In this document: positions 24,801 through 51,920 of the stretch, in pieces | How the letters are laid out: the number at the start of each line of letters is the position of its first letter | How positions within the stretch are numbered: the stretch's first letter is position 1 | Source: a virus | DNA: 64,000 bases | Strand: one strand, 5' to 3' | IMG/VR virus record: IMGVR_UViG_3300048997_000353 | Coordinates: 32,001 to 96,000 of that record | The notes under the pieces: generated by a model | Database searches by the model: none | Told to the model about the DNA's origin: nothing | Seen by the model: the letters and a program-made list of their open reading frames with translations, nothing else | Translations under genes and position numbers: made by a program

Positions 24801-24875
24801 TGGAGCGCCTGGCGCGATTCGAACGCGCGACCCGCCTCTTTAGAGAAGGCTACTCTACCGCTGAGTTACAGGCGC
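24801..24875 (-). tRNA. tRNA with CUA anticodon (amber suppressor), Gly-like acceptor
   Basis: GCGCCTG TA ACTC AGCGGTA GAGT A GCCTT CTCTAAA GAGGC GGGTC GCGCG TTCGAAT CGCGC CAGGCGC T CCA. Confidence 0.9.
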
Positions 24876-24908: not shown

Positions 24909-25388
24909 TTATTCCAACGATTCGACCAAGCTGGTGCCCGGTCCGCACTCAAGCGCAGTGAGCTGCCGCCCACTACCGGGCAGAGAATTGGTGCGGACGG
25001 TAGGATTTTCACCCACACTTTCAGCTTTAGAGGCCGACGTGCCTGACACCGCGTCCGCAGTGTATTTCCAAAGTCGGTAGTTCTTCAGCGCCGCGCGCTG
25101 TTCCCCCGTGATCGGAGCCGTGGCAATCGCCGTAAATCCAAAGTTATTATCCGGTTCGGTCCAGAGGTAGTGCGGGATGTAGTTGGCTTGCAGCTTCGCC
25201 ACGACGCGGCGCAAAGCGGCCACACCGGGCAGGCCGACGACGATGATATTGGGAACGAGATCTTCGTTGGGGTGCTGGATGGCGGCGAGATGGAAAACTG
25301 CATGATTGGCTTGAACGATTTGGTGAGCGACAGGAATGTCCTGTCTAACGAAAACGTACACTGCATGGTCAGTGGGAATCTATGTCAT
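24909..25388 (-). CDS. PTH2-like peptidyl-tRNA hydrolase with an in-frame TAG at codon 3
   Basis: YVFVRQDI..AHQIVQANHA..WTEPD..TAIATAP is PTH2/PTRHD1-like. ATG ACA TAG at 25388-25380 is in frame with GTG 25361. Confidence 0.75.
24932..24981 (-). ncRNA. 50-nt mini tRNA-like element with acceptor stem and ACCA end
   Basis: GCCCGGT...ACCGGGC-A-CCA encloses the hairpin AGTGGGC-GGCA-GCTCACT and a short second hairpin. Confidence 0.6.
24989..25058 (-). tRNA. Atypical 70-nt CUA tRNA (small D-arm, tRNA-Pyl-like T-loop)
   Basis: GCGGACG CG GTGT CAG GCAC G TCGGC CTCTAAA GCTGA AAGT GTGGG TGAAAAT CCTAC CGTCCGC A CCA. Confidence 0.75.
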
Positions 25389-33256: not shown

Positions 33257-33999
33257 GCCGCTAGCTTCAGTCCTGGTTTCGTCGTGTAATATCTAGTGAT
33301 GCCGCCTCGTGCAGTCACGTGAAGTGTGGTGATGCCGCTGCATCCTGTTTTGCCTGACTCAGTTTCGCCGTTAGATGGTGCCGACCGGCTCCGCTTTGTC
33401 GTGCCGCTAAGTCGAGTCCGAAATTGTCTCGTCATGTCATGCCGCTACATTTCGTTTCGTCCGGTTTGCAAATTGCCGCCCCCGCGATGCTGCGTGATGC
33501 GATGTCCTGTCAAGCCGCTCGGTCTGGCGGTGCGAAGTGGAATCGAGTAACGCCGCTCTGTCCGGTCAGGTATGGTTCAGTGGGGTAAAGCCGTTTCGTT
33601 AAGTTTTGTCCTGTCACGAAATGTCCTATCAGGCCGCTGTGTTCAGTTCTGTTCTGTGGTGTCGCATACGGCCGCTGCATCGAATTTTGTAAGATTTAAT
33701 CTGGCGTTGCCGCTCCGTGGGATCCAGTAGTATCAAGTAAAGTCTGGTCAAGCCGCTGTGTATTTGTCATGTCACGTCCAGTCGGGCCGCTCGGTCAAGT
33801 TGTGCCGTGTGCGGTCTAGCCCGGCCGCTCCGTGGAGTTCAGTTTCGTTCAATTGCGTCCTGCCGCTACGTGACGTAAAGTTCGGTGAAGTGGTGCCGCT
33901 GAGTCACGCTTGGTGAAGCGGTGCCGCTCCGTGGTGTCATGCCGCGCCTGGTTGAGCAATGCCGCTATGTGGTGTGGCGTGATGTTAAGTGACGCCGCT
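33257..33999 (-). repeat. Pentamer-periodic repeat array 1 (21 motif copies)
   Basis: GCCGCT-like motif (+ strand) at spacings 44,33,33,36,38,34,39,38,38,43,38,38,43,34,38,38,33,28,38,33. The intervening DNA is made of GTNNN pentamers. Confidence 0.92.
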
Positions 34000-34179
34000 C
34001 GGTTTTTGGAAAATGAATGGGAACCGCTGAACATTGGAGTAACAGTCCAACTCTTTGCGGTTCCCCTTGAAACGGCCACGGCTCCGAGGCTAATCGCGGG
34101 TTGATCGTAAGCAGTTACGATGCTTCGTATCCCTATCGCCGTCCTCCGCCTATAGCTCCACTTGGTCACTAGGGCCGTT

Positions 34180-34371
34180 TCAATTACCAATCTTGGCGCG
34201 GACAAAGCAGTCTTTTGCCTCAAGCAGTTTGCGGAGTCCAGCCGATTTCTCAGGCCCATCAGGAAGTTGCGCGTCCATCGAGCAGGCGAGCGCGAATACA
34301 TCTCCGCTCACGCCCCTTAGGTGCTCTGGTAAGTGTGCGAAGTCGAAATATTTCATAATCGGTGATGGCAC
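34180..34371 (-). CDS. Small conserved phage helical-hairpin protein (possibly Acb2/Tad1-like)
   Basis: GGAGG SD and GTG start; YFDFAHLP...PDGPEKSAGLRKLLEAKDCFVRA. Confidence 0.65.
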   Translation of the reverse strand: MPSPIMKYFDFAHLPEHLRGVSGDVFALACSMDAQLPDGPEKSAGLRKLLEAKDCFVRAKIGN

Positions 34372-34439
34372 AGTGTTCCTCCATTTCGAGTTGCGATTAT
34401 AAGGGGCCGGATTCGGCGCTCCGGCCTGCGCTTCGTGAT

Positions 34440-35255
34440 TTAAGCCGTCGCCGCCTTGGCTGTTTCCGCGCCGTTCGCCTTGGCTGGTGCCTCGATCACT
34501 GGCTTCTCCCGCTTCTTCTGCCGGTCGCCCATCTCGATCTCGGCTTCGTCGACCCGGAAGCGGCCGCGGCCCAGCGATCGGCAACTGCCCAAACCGCACA
34601 TCATAATCATCGCAGTGACGTCGGTAAGATCAACCTCCTTCACGTTGGTGGTCAAGAATCGGAAGTTGAACGAAAATCTCGAGCCCGACGCCACACACTC
34701 GGAATGCTGGTAAATGCTCTTGGGTCCCTTCGGCGTATTCACCGAACCCATGAACGCACTCCAATAAGTTTTGGCCGGGCCTGTCATGTCCTCGTTCAGC
34801 ATGTACACCTTGTCCGGGGAATCAGCGTCGAGCAAACTAAATCCATCGGCCAAGACGCGCGCTGCTTCCGAGAAATCACCCTTCGTTCCCCGCAGATCGG
34901 AAAATATTTTGAGACGCGATGCGGCCTGCTTTATGCAGGCCTGCACCATCCAGTTGCCGATATACGCTCCGCGCTCCGTGCGCCGGAGAGCGTTGACTCC
35001 ATACACTTGCTCGGGCTGCAATTCCCCGGTTTCGCTCGGAAGTTCCTCCTGCCCAACCTCTTCGTGAAGGATTCTCTGGACAGCCTTCTCGGCATCATCG
35101 CCGGTCAGTTCCAAATGATGCTCCACGAACGCGCGAACACCACGTTCATCCGCTGGTTGCCCGCCCACAAACTCGGTTACGAAAGTGGCTTGCACTTTCA
35201 CAACTCCCGTTAGTTTCTGGTAAATCGCTTCTAGGTCTTTTGCGTTGAATTTCAT
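34440..35255 (-). CDS. Stand-alone RAMP (Cas7/Csm3-like) protein
   Basis: 271 aa. Beta1 followed by GG; YIGNWMVQACIKQAA helix; SE strand; C-terminal Gly-rich loop GLGSCRSLGRGRF. AAAGGAG SD. Confidence 0.8.
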   Translation of the reverse strand: MKFNAKDLEAIYQKLTGVVKVQATFVTEFVGGQPADERGVRAFVEHHLELTGDDAEKAVQRILHEEVGQEELPSETGELQPEQVYGVNALRRTERGAYIGNWMVQACIKQAASRLKIFSDLRGTKGDFSEAARVLADGFSLLDADSPDKVYMLNEDMTGPAKTYWSAFMGSVNTPKGPKSIYQHSECVASGSRFSFNFRFLTTNVKEVDLTDVTAMIMMCGLGSCRSLGRGRFRVDEAEIEMGDRQKKREKPVIEAPAKANGAETAKAATA

Positions 35256-35329
35256 TTTCTGTTCTCCTTTGTGATCTGCGAACGAATCGATCATTGCTCG
35301 CTAGATTTCGTGCCGAAAAGTTTCGTTTT

Positions 35330-36062
35330 GCCGCTATGTGGTGTCCAGTAGCGTGTGGTCATGCCAAGTACAGTAGCGCCGCTCTGTGCGGTCGAGTAAC
35401 TGTCGAATTGGGTCCGGTCTTGTCGTGCCGCTCTGTGACGTATAGTAAAGTCTTGTCTTGTCCCGCCGCTCTGAACGGTTGAATGGAGTTGGGTGCCGCC
35501 GCTGGGTCGCATCGTGTAATGTTCTGTCATGCTTCGCGACGCCGCTGGATACTGCGATGTCGAGTGTAGTCGAGCCGTTGCGTGGAATATGGTGAAGTGG
35601 CGTACTGCCGCAGTAGTGCCACGCGCTGTCCAATGCGGAATTGCCGCTCGGTCGAGTCCGGTGCAGTAGGGTCTTGTGGTATGGAGCCGCTGCGTAGAAT
35701 CGAGTCCTGTGACATCATGGGTTGCCGTTTTATTCTGCTCGGTTTGGTCGAAGTCAAGTTTGCCGCTCCGTCATGCCGCTCTGTCGTGTCGAGTTCAATG
35801 GTGTGCGGTCGTGTAAAGTCCTGCCGCTCCGTGCTGCCAGGTTGTGTCGTGTGAGATGGGGTATAGCCGCTCTGTTGCATAGAGTTATGTTGTGTCCAGC
35901 CGCTCAGTCTTGTCGTGTCTGGGCATGTGGAGTTTGGCCGCTGTGTAAAGCTCAGTTCGAGTGCGCTTTGCCGCCTGCGTGATGCCGTGCGCGATGGTGT
36001 AATGCCGCTGAATCGGGTGCCAACTTGTGAAGTGCTGTCAAATGGCATCTTGTCGAGCCGCT
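35330..36062 (-). repeat. Pentamer-periodic repeat array 2 (20 motif copies)
   Basis: Spacings 48,49,38,33,43,33,33,36,43,38,38,13,48,43,33,38,33,34,53. Confidence 0.92.
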
Positions 36063-36065
36063 AGA

Positions 36066-36398
36066 TTATTTCTTTCCGGTTGGAGTTCCGCAGTTCGAAC
36101 AGAACTTCGCACCTGCGATTTGCGTGTTACAGGTTCCGCAGATCAAGTCCTCCGGTGCAGGCCCCGAAATGAGACGGATCTCCTTCTCGGGCCGCTTACC
36201 GCGGTTTAATCGTTGGTTTTGAATCATCAAATCGCCAATTTTGCAAAATATTTTGGCATTGCCTTGTTTGATGCGCGCGACAGCTTCCGTCATGGAGCCA
36301 TCGTCGATCCCTTCTCCGATCTGGTTGACCAGGGCCACAACATCCCCTAGATTTTCAACCTTGATTGTCTTTCTTGCCGCCGGCGGTTGGTCGGTCAT
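36066..36398 (-). CDS. 110-aa protein with a C-terminal double Zn ribbon, between arrays 2 and 3
   Basis: AAAGGAG SD; CGTC...KFCSNCG. Confidence 0.7.
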   Translation of the reverse strand: MTDQPPAARKTIKVENLGDVVALVNQIGEGIDDGSMTEAVARIKQGNAKIFCKIGDLMIQNQRLNRGKRPEKEIRLISGPAPEDLICGTCNTQIAGAKFCSNCGTPTGKK

Positions 36399-36457
36399 CT
36401 TTTCTCCTTTAAGAGTTTAGTTCTCTCGCATTTTTGGGCTTCGTTTTGTTTTGTGTT

Positions 36458-36981
36458 GCCGCTTTATCGAGTAGAGTCACGTACAGTGCTGTCGAGTAAC
36501 GCCGCTGTGTCGCGTACCGTCGAGTCAGGTGACGGCCAGTAGCGCCGCTGAGTAAAGTCGAGTCGGATCGGGTCCCGTATTGCCGTTCCGTAAGGTCACG
36601 TTGGGTTGAGCCGCTGGGTAAAGTCCAGTCTTATCCCGTCGAGTCGCGGAGAATACTGCCGGGTCATGTGGCGCCGCTGCGTTGTGTAAGGTCAAGGATT
36701 GTCGGGTCGAGTGGGGAAAGGCCGCTCGGTGGTATAAAGTTGCGTGCAGTCGGAGCATGCCGCTGCGCAGAGCTGTGTGAGGGAATGTGGCAAATTGCCG
36801 TTCGGTGTGGATAGGTTTCGTCATGTCATGCCGCATTATCAAGTGGAGTCTGGTGGGATCGGGCCGCTTGTCTTGTTGAGTGCGGTGTCGGAGGGTCATG
36901 CCGCTATATTGAATTGGGTCGGGTCGGAGCATGGAAAGTGGGGCCGCTACGACTTGTGACGTTCTGGTTGGTATCGCCGCT
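36458..36981 (-). repeat. Pentamer-periodic repeat array 3 (14 motif copies)
   Basis: Spacings 43,43,38,28,63,48,38,38,33,33,37,43,33. Confidence 0.92.
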
Positions 36982-36999
36982 TGGTAAAGGTTATGTGTT

Positions 37000-37174
37000 G
37001 ACTGACCTGTTACAAGGACACCCGCAAGGATTGGCGTGTGCCGACGCCTACGTTTTATGCCCCACTCCTGCGTTAATTCGCGACCTTGGCTAGTGTCAGT
37101 CGCTCTTACGAGCGGGTTTTCCCCAGCGGCAACCTGTGGAGCCTCCCTGTGGGTGCCCATGTAACAGGTCAATC
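37000..37174 (-). ncRNA. Structured RNA leader upstream of array 3
   Basis: About 31-bp closing stem GATTGACCTGTTACA-TGGGCACCCACAGGGA / TCCTTGCGGGTGTCC-TTGTAACAGGTCAGTC with inner hairpins. Confidence 0.65.
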
Positions 37175-37180
37175 GTGTGT

Positions 37181-37321
37181 TCATATTTTCTTCTTCTTGG
37201 CTGCTGACTTAACAATGGACTCCAGGGTTTCGTACTGCCGCTTGCCCGCCATGGCGGCGAGAATCCGCAACAGCCGAAGCGTTTCTGGTGTGACTTTGGT
37301 GCTTACCAGAGGTTCCCGCAT
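37181..37321 (-). CDS. 46-aa ribbon-helix-helix-like regulator
   Basis: MREPLVSTKVTPETLRLLRILAAMAGKRQYETLESIV... Confidence 0.55.
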   Translation of the reverse strand: MREPLVSTKVTPETLRLLRILAAMAGKRQYETLESIVKSAAKKKKI

Positions 37322-51480: not shown

Positions 51481-51920
51481 GACTTAAGCCGGACGCCAGC
51501 AGGGACCGGAACAGGGGTTCAACGCATTAGATTCCAGAGCAAAGTTAGGATGTGGCCTTGAGCCGATGATTCCTACTAACTTCCGCGATGTGGCCCCGCG
51601 CCGAATTCGGGATGGTCCTCTGGAGTTGATTAGGTTCCTACAGAATAGCTCTATGGTTTGTTGTCCTATCGCTGACCATAGTGAAGGAAAGCCAATTCCT
51701 CTACCTGTACACAATCCACGGACGAAAGAAGATGCCTAAGTCAGATGAAGCGCAATCGGATAGCGCGGAATTATCCGTCCGACGCGTAGAACGGTAAGTC
51801 TACGCCACAACAGATTTTGCAGATGGACTCCGGTCAGGACCGCCGAGAAAGCGGAACCCGCAGGCTACACGCTAGGCAAACCGGAGTTAATGCACACGGT
51901 CCGTCCAAAGTCGGACCAAA
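51481..51920 (+). ncRNA. Long structured non-coding leader
   Basis: No credible ORF; at least seven visible helices (e.g. GACTTAAGC/GCCTAAGTC, ACTCCGGT/ACCGGAGT, GCGTAGA/TCTACGC). Confidence 0.5.

What the first reader, a model, noticed from the sequence alone, without database searches (positions are those of the whole stretch)
33257..36981. Array unit lengths are quantised at 8+5n nt
Seen: 43 of 52 motif-to-motif distances, counted by hand, are 13, 28, 33, 38, 43, 48, 53 or 63 nt; most exceptions are off by one. Example (- strand, 35871-35823): AGCGGC TATAC CCCAT CTCAC ACGAC ACAAC CTGGC AGCAC GG AGCGGC. Register is held while the triplets vary freely, which neither codon structure nor simple slippage explains. 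Inference: a 5-nt-per-subunit ruler under selection; units grow or shrink by whole pentamers.
Basis: seen in the sequence. Interest (0 to 1): 0.85.

Follow-up and report, generated by a model that had tools for sequence, protein, structure and literature searches.

The report
Phage VIPR guide arrays, AY-type
The 8+5n length rule is real: these are three arrays of about 52 short guide RNAs of the VIPR kind (a CRISPR relative first reported in 2026), written in five-letter steps, and one guide spells the phage's own VIPR protein gene.

Summary
Observation confirmed. On the minus strand, 43 of 56 anchor-to-anchor distances equal 8+5n (p about 1e-19). A-C recurs every 5 nt (z 19.7 against shuffles). 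A parse gives 312 pentamers, 49 junctions and only 8 register slips.

Re-registered, each unit reads GGC-NN, then n copies of xAY-NN, then AGC. The extra 8 nt come from two fixed triplets (AGC, GGC) placed back to back.

The 271-aa gene between the arrays has a Cas7/Csm3-like fold (Z 11.7). Its relatives in 30 of 37 other phage or metagenome loci carry the same kind of array.

This matches VIPR systems (four bioRxiv preprints of 2026). There, cryo-EM shows one Vipr protomer per pentamer, and the NN pairs read DNA with one base skipped. GAC/NN and CAC/NN variants are already in print.

The 5-nt ruler is therefore supported, but the kind is known. Possibly new: short guides with no structured tail, separated only by AGC-GGC; a conserved small neighbour gene; and one guide matching the phage's own vipr gene 18/18 under the one-base-skip rule only. 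No expression data were available.

The parts
36440..36985 (-). Array A: about 14 guide units (GGC-NN, then xAY-NN repeats, then AGC), running up to the ribosome-binding site of the next gene
36066..36398 (-). 110-aa gene, candidate vipr-accessory gene. Its helical N-terminal part is conserved in 10 loci, always just upstream of the array that precedes vipr. Here it also has a C-terminal zinc ribbon.
35300..36062 (-). Array B: about 18 guide units, ending at the ribosome-binding site of vipr
35333..35382 (-). Guide unit with 9 NN (GC TG TT AT CA GC TG AC AT) that matches the phage's own vipr gene
34440..35255 (-). vipr: 271-aa stand-alone Cas7/Csm3-like RAMP with a G-rich loop at residues 221-233 and a basic disordered tail
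34924..34949 (+). Site inside vipr (codons M103-A111, MVQACIKQA) matched 18/18 by the guide above under the NNx rule; skipped bases fall on wobble positions
34180..34371 (-). 63-aa gene directly downstream of vipr (phrog_1761 / phrog_5120, function unknown); not found next to vipr in the relatives
33257..33999 (-). Array C: about 20 guide units, ending at the ribosome-binding site of a 72-aa gene
37000..37174 (-). Strongly folding leader ahead of array A (-90.5 kcal/mol, z -7.2); role unknown; not conserved by sequence in the relatives

Best explanation
The three blocks are VIPR-type guide-RNA (vrRNA) arrays of a soil phage, served by the Vipr protein encoded between them. Inferred from the published type II system: the arrays are transcribed from the minus strand. 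One Vipr protomer binds each 5-nt repeat and clamps the fixed triplet (here xAY instead of GGY). This exposes the two variable bases, and the NN pairs together read double-stranded DNA as NNxNNx, one target base skipped per repeat, to silence transcription. Unit length is quantised because a guide is a whole number of protomer footprints. The constant 8 arises because each unit opens with a canonical GGC-NN repeat and closes with an AGC triplet that has no NN. Two fixed triplets therefore abut at every boundary, and the register slips by 3. That slip would stop a filament, or a target match, from running on into the next guide, so it acts as punctuation in place of the structured 3' tail of type II vrRNAs. 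Shown here: the periodicity, the grammar, the Cas7-like fold, the co-occurrence of gene and array across relatives, the hypervariability of NN, and one perfect one-base-skip match. Inferred: transcription, processing, filament formation and DNA binding.
For: Periodicity and grammar.

The protein is a Cas7/Csm3-like RAMP. AlphaFold2 gives pLDDT 87. Foldseek against PDB gives E 4e-8, with Csm3 and type VII Cas7 on top. VIA gives Z 11.7 over 173 residues, and all top 50 are Cas7-family. A profile hit to Csm3 covers the beta-hairpin and G-loop. The best BFVD hits are phage RAMPs.

No other cas genes or CRISPR repeats lie nearby.

Gene and array travel together. In 29 of 37 related loci (vipr 33-54% identical), co-oriented arrays abut the gene, with 242 of 305 anchor distances at 3 mod 5. 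In one more locus the array lies 40 kb away.

NN is hypervariable. Phages with 97%-identical vipr genes share no unit. NN entropy is 3.88 of 4 bits.

The code fits. One 9-NN guide matches the own genome 18/18 only with a 1-nt skip, wobble-aligned. Near-perfect self-genome matches number 14 against 6.3 +/- 2.5 only at skip 1; 0 of 60 shuffles reach 14.

Published mechanism. Non-canonical GAC/NN and CAC/NN VIPR clusters are already reported.

An hhalign of this family to the SUSP1 Vipr (located in KT454805.2) is colinear from helix 1 to the G-loop. The published pyrimidine-pocket residues are kept (M72=M103, C173=C220, R179=R226), while the guanine readers are changed (D177 to S224, W178 to C225). 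This fits an invariant Y with an altered first two bases.

The genome is a phage: portal and large terminase.
Against: There is no expression or processing data for this locus. Sequence similarity to a published Vipr is weak (hhalign E 0.019, probability 2.4%; BLASTP nothing), so kinship rests on fold and locus grammar. The canonical GGY appears only in the first repeat of each unit, and no structured tail follows the repeats. Guides are short (mostly 5-8 NN, 10-16 informative bases), which gives little specificity. Only one convincing target was found, and it is in the phage itself, whereas the published native guides avoid their own contig. The two longest guides have no exact match in IMG/VR.
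Confidence: 0.85

Rival explanations
1. The RNP acts on RNA, not DNA. The Cas7-like filament would use the same gapped guides to bind transcripts, as type III Csm3/Cmr4 backbones do, for example its own vipr mRNA.
For: The closest solved folds are RNA-targeting Csm3 and type VII Cas7. The one strong match is antisense to the vipr coding strand, so the guide is complementary to the mRNA as well as to one DNA strand.
Against: The published VIPR binds double-stranded DNA and silences from either strand. The acidic residue after beta-1 that Csm3 uses for cleavage is not conserved in this family (alignment; the Csm3 role is from my own knowledge).
Confidence: 0.06
2. The arrays are a protein-coating scaffold or decoy and not guides. 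The RAMP would polymerise on the long untranslated leaders to protect them, or to titrate a host factor, and the NN bases would be free simply because nothing reads them.
For: The arrays fill the 5' leaders of genes and end at ribosome-binding sites. They are C-rich and G-poor, hence unstructured. Almost no targets were found.
Against: A scaffold needs no punctuation into units of 5-9 repeats, nor complete replacement of units between near-identical phages. An 18/18 wobble-aligned match to a gene is not expected from unread bases.
Confidence: 0.06
3. The arrays are DNA-level binding sites (iterons, a centromere or a packaging signal) read by a DNA-binding protein with a half-turn repeat.
For: 5 bp is about half a helical turn; the motif is dense and local.
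Against: Strand asymmetry is strict, and the arrays are co-oriented with the RAMP gene in all relatives. The partner protein has an RNA-binding RAMP fold. The 3-nt phase slip at every unit would break any helical phasing.
Confidence: 0.02
4. The periodicity is a by-product of coding sequence or of replication slippage.
For: Long minus-strand ORFs run through arrays A and B: 36525-37184 (219 aa) and 35527-36048 (173 aa).
Against: A period of 5 with 3-nt slips cannot hold a reading frame. The open frames follow from the scarcity of T and G. Units are all different and TRF finds no array.
Confidence: 0.01

Closest known systems
VIPR systems, type II exemplar of Escherichia phage SUSP1 (Vipr ALH47069.1, vap1, four vrRNAs; bioRxiv 10.64898/2026.04.26.720920 and .720927)
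   Same: Both are phage-encoded with a lone minimal RAMP and flanking non-coding arrays of 5-nt repeats made of a fixed triplet plus a free NN. The third fixed base is an obligate pyrimidine. The 1-nt-skip match aligns to codon wobble. Helix-1 and G-loop motifs align (ACIK; C-G-x-G; R-x-x-G-R/K-F).
   Different: The fixed triplet is xAY, not GGY; GGC appears only at the first repeat of each unit. Guides have 2-12 repeats (mode 6-8) against 9-16. There is no ~40-nt pseudoknot tail, only an AGC-GGC junction. About 52 guides lie in three arrays against four vrRNAs. The protein is 271 aa against 195 aa. No vap1 homologue was found. One guide matches its own vipr gene.
Non-canonical VIPR-like clusters with GAC/NN or CAC/NN repeats (bioRxiv 10.64898/2026.10.21.760802)
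   Same: The same fixed triplets (GAC and CAC are the two commonest here, 68 and 48 of 246) occur next to a Vipr-like fold.
   Different: That preprint, as far as its text shows, reports the motifs and the co-located fold. It does not report the unit punctuation, the 8+5n rule or targets. Whether this locus is in one of its 21 clusters could not be checked.
Staggered vrRNA arrays (fig. S18 of 10.64898/2026.04.26.720920)
   Same: In both, guides abut directly, the end of one marking the start of the next.
   Different: Only the legend could be read (1-nt overlap between neighbours). The consensus and VIPR type are not given in the text, so identity with the AGC-GGC junction is open.
Type III CRISPR crRNP (Csm3/Cmr4 backbone)
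   Same: The backbone protein has a Cas7 fold. Guide length equals a constant handle of 8 nt plus a whole number of subunit footprints.
   Different: The footprint is 6 nt with 5 paired bases, not 5 nt with 2 paired. Type III has long CRISPR repeats, Cas6 processing and Cas10/Cas5 partners, all absent here.

Membership tests
VIPR | Stand-alone minimal RAMP (RRM core, G-rich loop, thumb) with no other cas genes nearby | tested here: met
   pLDDT 87 model. Csm3/Cas7 top matches: Foldseek E 4e-8, VIA Z 11.7. Neighbours have no Cas families in Pfam.
VIPR | Detectable kinship to a published Vipr protein | tested here: inconclusive
   hhalign of the 32-sequence family against SUSP1 Vipr gives E 0.019 and probability 2.4%, colinear over 127 columns with helix 1 and the G-loop aligned. 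BLASTP finds nothing. No VIPR structure appeared among the PDB matches.
VIPR | Adjacent non-coding tandem 5-nt repeats: a fixed triplet alternating with a hypervariable NN | tested here: met
   312 pentamers; fixed positions carry 1.15 and 1.34 bits; NN carries 3.88 of 4 bits. The same holds in 30 of 37 related loci.
VIPR | Fixed triplet is GGY (canonical consensus) | tested here: not met
   The fixed triplet is xAY (GAC 68, CAC 48, TAC 30, AAC 29). GGC occurs only as the first triplet of every unit. The papers allow 'a related consensus', and GAC/NN and CAC/NN variants are reported.
VIPR | Targets follow the 1-nt skip rule (NNx), often with the skip on codon wobble | tested here: met
   One 18/18 wobble-aligned match, at skip 1 only. 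There is an excess of matches with at most 1 mismatch at skip 1 only, 14 against 6.3 +/- 2.5. This rests on a single strong target.
VIPR | Conserved structured 3' tail after each repeat tract (type II) | tested here: not met
   Units are separated by 8 nt only. This is a type II trait, not required of all seven types.
VIPR | A vipr-accessory (vap) gene in the locus | tested here: inconclusive
   A small helical protein family is conserved in 10 loci just upstream of the array (window 36066-36398). Its function is unknown, and it was not compared with vap1-6 apart from visual inspection of SUSP1 vap1.
VIPR | Encoded by a virus or provirus | tested here: met
   Portal and large terminase in the window. 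The genome is a 108-kb virus record. Relatives are in IMG/VR.
VIPR | vrRNAs are expressed and co-purify with Vipr; the RNP binds dsDNA | not testable with these tools
   Only a soil DNA run holds the sequence.
CRISPR-Cas type III | CRISPR array of direct repeats of 20 nt or more with unique spacers | tested here: not met
   TRF and a direct reading show no repeat longer than the 6-nt anchor.
CRISPR-Cas type III | Cas10, Cas5 and Cas6 partner genes | tested here: not met
   Nine neighbouring proteins have no such Pfam or PHROG hits. Only vipr is shared with the related loci.

The most novel reading that the evidence does not exclude
This clade uses a tail-less 'punctuated' array grammar. Guides of only 5-9 repeats would be delimited solely by two abutting fixed triplets (AGC, GGC), with a canonical GGC as the nucleation repeat. 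The phage would also wire the system back on itself: a guide at the end of array B, about 80 nt upstream of vipr, binds codons 103-111 of vipr. That stretch is the RNA-binding helix, the most conserved part of the family. The result would be negative autoregulation that also hits rival phages' vipr genes (16-17 of 18 matches in six relatives).
Probability: 0.35. Interest if true: 0.6.

Novelty: new variant of a known kind. Interest (0 to 1): 0.42.

Why it matters
The length rule is not a new principle. It is the expected signature of a system described in 2026, so the main value is correct annotation. Three points could still interest people working on VIPR.

1. A natural Vipr family reads xAY instead of GGY. 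It keeps the published pyrimidine-pocket residues but has changed the two guanine-reading residues. That is a ready-made test of how the scaffold triplet is recognised.

2. This is a very compact multi-guide format: about 52 guides in 2 kb, with no tails, ribozymes or long repeats. If it is processed or read as written, it would be a simple way to multiplex guides.

3. A perfect guide against the system's own effector gene suggests autoregulation, or an arms race over vipr itself. Published native guides were reported to avoid their own contig.

Tried and rejected
The contigs of the closest homologues (66% identity) could therefore not be fetched, and no true strain-level comparison of this phage's arrays was possible.
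- Sequencing runs: no RNA holder is listed; only the probable source soil DNA run holds the stretch.
- Complex prediction on three copies of Vipr (residues 1-245): no verdict, score 0.27 against a mark of 0.42. This counts neither for nor against.
- tblastn of Vipr against 50,697 phage records: no match.
- Pfam, PHROGs and the PDB sequence search give no significant family for Vipr.
- Rfam at gathering threshold finds nothing in the locus.
- The sigma-70 and terminator scan is at shuffle level, with no minus-strand promoter.
- Target searches. In the local set of 37 loci plus the own genome with the locus masked, no skip rule stood out on mean best score. The 12-NN and 10-NN guides have no exact IMG/VR match. 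The vipr-matching guide has 11 exact IMG/VR matches in two unrelated protein families, none of them vipr, which is about what chance gives for 18 specified bases.
- A second match in vipr (13/14, not wobble-aligned) is treated as possibly chance.
- The match does not extend across the junction into neighbouring units (read by hand).
- The variable base x of the fixed triplet does not track the skipped target base: 2 of 8 (read by hand from the sequences).
- An 'anti-junction' RNA was sought: GCCGCU is not clustered anywhere; one copy lies in the leader, p about 0.09.
- TRAP-like, Rho-site, nucleocapsid-like and mini-CRISPR readings were considered before the VIPR papers were found. They were dropped because none explains the RAMP partner together with free NN bases.
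Full report
**What is there.**
Read on the minus strand, 33257-36985 holds three non-coding blocks: A (36985-36440), B (36062-35300) and C (33999-33257). Small minus-strand genes separate them. GCGGC occurs 55 times on that strand here, against about 2 per kb elsewhere, and it clusters nowhere else in the 108,441-bp genome. Laid out from each anchor, the text falls into pentamers ending in A-C or A-T, closed by NNA before the next anchor.

**Is it more than chance?**
- With [AG]CGGC anchors, 43 of 56 distances are 3 mod 5 (binomial p 1e-19). With strict GCGGC the count is 32 of 48.
- AC autocorrelation at lag 5 is 129 against 34.9 +/- 4.8 in dinucleotide-preserving shuffles (z 19.7). Lags 4, 6 and 9 are nearly empty. 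The peak moves to lags 18, 23 and 28, as an 8-nt junction predicts.
- Position 4 of the pentamer is A in 85%. Position 5 is a pyrimidine in 246 of 246. Positions 1-3 carry 0.05-0.07 bits.
- A dynamic-programming parse tiles 2,011 nt into 312 pentamers, 49 junctions and 8 slips of 1-2 nt. That gives about 52 units, 44 of them without any fault.
- Units are all different, and the NN dinucleotides use all 16 combinations (3.88 of 4 bits). TRF sees no tandem array.

**A better register.**
Shifting the frame by two bases, every unit reads GGC-NN, then n copies of xAY-NN, then AGC. The junction is two fixed triplets, AGC and GGC, with no NN between them. That gives 5(n+1)+3 = 8+5n. The logo over 237 junctions from this window and 28 related loci shows exactly this. 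Apparent '20+18' exceptions are in-phase GGC triplets that follow a GC dinucleotide.

**The partner protein.**
- The 271-aa gene 34440-35255 has no Pfam family. It has 61 homologues of similar length in metagenomes, with an invariant G-rich loop.
- The AlphaFold2 model (pLDDT 87) matches Csm3, Cmr4 and type VII Cas7 chains: Foldseek E down to 4e-8, VIA Z 11.7 over 173 residues with all top 50 being Cas7-family. In BFVD it matches phage RAMPs.
- The family profile touches Csm3 at the hairpin and G-loop (E = 1).
- The window is a phage: it has a portal and a large terminase.

**Gene and array travel together.**
I fetched 37 loci encoding relatives (33-54% identical). Only vipr itself is shared with the window by tblastn.
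- 23 loci carry GCGGC-anchored arrays on the gene's strand, abutting it upstream or downstream. In these, 242 of 305 distances are 3 mod 5.
- Six more show the same period-5 text with degraded anchors such as GGCGGC or ATCGGC.
- In the 163-kb contig of L007 the array lies at 40.2-40.9 kb and the gene at 81.6 kb.
- L018 and L019 have vipr genes 97% identical, yet their arrays share no unit, and every new unit again obeys the rule.

**What it is.**
An earlier follow-up note of this scan on another phage pointed to VIPR systems, and I read the preprints.
- VIPR consists of a phage-encoded minimal RAMP (Vipr) plus vrRNAs made of GGY-NN pentamers. The NN bases read dsDNA with one target base skipped per repeat, often on codon wobble. 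Binding silences transcription. Seven types exist with 'a related consensus' and various array layouts (10.64898/2026.04.26.720920).
- Cryo-EM shows one protomer per repeat. G1 and G2 are read by H17, D177, R138 and W178. Y3 sits in a pocket of E71, M72, C173 and R179 that excludes purines (10.64898/2026.04.26.720927).
- A later preprint lists divergent VIPR-like clusters with GAC/NN or CAC/NN repeats next to a Vipr-like fold (10.64898/2026.10.21.760802).
- The present arrays fit this description. The 5-nt ruler is the protomer footprint.

**Direct comparison with SUSP1.**
I located the SUSP1 locus in KT454805.2 and confirmed that the published residue numbers fall on ALH47069.1. hhalign of my family against it is weak (E 0.019) but colinear from helix 1 to the G-loop.
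- Kept: M72=M103, C173=C220, R179=R226.
- Changed: D177 becomes the invariant S224, and W178 becomes C225 (A, C or V in the family).

This is what one would expect if the pyrimidine pocket is retained and guanine reading is lost. It is an inference from a weak alignment.

**Does the same code apply?**
I scanned each guide's NN series against the phage's own genome with 0-3 skipped bases.
- The 9-NN unit at 35382-35333 matches 34924-34949 at 18 of 18, and only at skip 1. By my arithmetic the chance expectation is about 3e-6 for this guide in 217 kb.
- The site lies in vipr itself, antisense, with the skipped bases on wobble positions. It covers codons M103-A111 (MVQACIKQA), which is helix 1, the most conserved stretch of the family.
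- The same guide matches six relatives' vipr genes at 16-17 of 18.
- Matches with at most one mismatch number 14 at skip 1, against 6.3 +/- 2.5 in shuffles (0 of 60 reach 14). They sit at the null for skips 0 and 2; skip 3 is slightly above it (10 against 6.1). Eight of the 14 are wobble-aligned, which is only suggestive.
- No other locus has a guide to its own vipr.
- Exact IMG/VR matches of this guide (11 contigs, two unrelated protein families, none of them vipr) are at about chance level. The two longest guides have none.
- Vipr-targeting guides are known from vipr-null phages, and published native guides avoided their own contig. A perfect self-match in a vipr-positive phage is therefore unusual.

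**Other parts of the locus.**
- The 110-aa gene 36066-36398 belongs to a small helical family found in 10 loci, always just upstream of the array that precedes vipr. It is the best candidate for an accessory gene. Here it carries an extra zinc ribbon.
- The 63-aa gene after vipr (phrog_1761) is not shared with the relatives.
- The 175-nt leader before array A folds very strongly (z -7.2) but is not conserved by sequence in relatives.

**Limits.**
No expression data exist for this soil phage. The oligomer prediction gave no verdict. Transcription, processing at the junction, filament formation and DNA binding are all inferred from the type II system.

**Verdict.**
What may be new is the punctuated, tail-less array grammar, the conserved small neighbour gene and the self-directed guide.

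Noticed in passing
window 24801-24875 (-), 24992-25058 (-): A tRNA with anticodon CUA (amber suppressor; ARAGORN calls it tRNA-Pyl) and a second, weaker tRNA-like Rfam match beside it. The phage may read some TAG codons through. The genes of the VIPR locus contain no in-frame TAG under table 11.
   Followed up: no
window 51818-51915 (+): Type-P5 twister ribozyme match just above Rfam's gathering score (39.5 against 37.6 bits).
   Followed up: no
window 37000-37174 (-): The leader ahead of array A folds into a long closing stem with a multibranch core (-90.5 kcal/mol, z -7.2, 0 of 200 shuffles). It holds the only nearby GCCGCU, the complement of the AGCGGC junction (p about 0.09). It is not conserved by sequence in related loci.
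   Followed up: partly
L018:3248-3530 and L019:4512-4915: Two metagenome phages whose vipr genes are 97% identical have upstream arrays with no unit in common, although the last 30 nt before the start codon are the same. Whole arrays are exchanged or rewritten quickly.
   Followed up: partly
L045:2564-3682 (+) and eight other IMG/VR contigs (L040, L042-L044, L047-L050): A conserved 372-aa phage protein (N-terminal HTH-like part, GNHD and GHLHHE motifs suggesting a metallophosphoesterase, no Pfam hit) carries IVQAWIKQA. That motif is spelled exactly by the window's vipr-matching guide. This is probably chance, but it could be a real rival-phage target.
   Followed up: partly
window 36525-37184 (-) and 35527-36048 (-): Long ORFs (219 and 173 aa) run through arrays A and B only because the text is poor in T and G. 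Gene callers are likely to annotate them as hypothetical proteins. A cluster of such array-born ORFs links seven related loci by BLASTP.
   Followed up: partly
G001:C1:40170-40950 (contig of L007): In a 163-kb relative, the array of the same grammar (xAY-NN with AGC-GGC junctions) lies about 40 kb from its vipr gene. So absence of an array next to vipr does not mean absence from the genome.
   Followed up: partly
window 34000-34182 (-): The spacer between the 63-aa gene and array C has two predicted hairpin domains (z -2.9 only).
   Followed up: no
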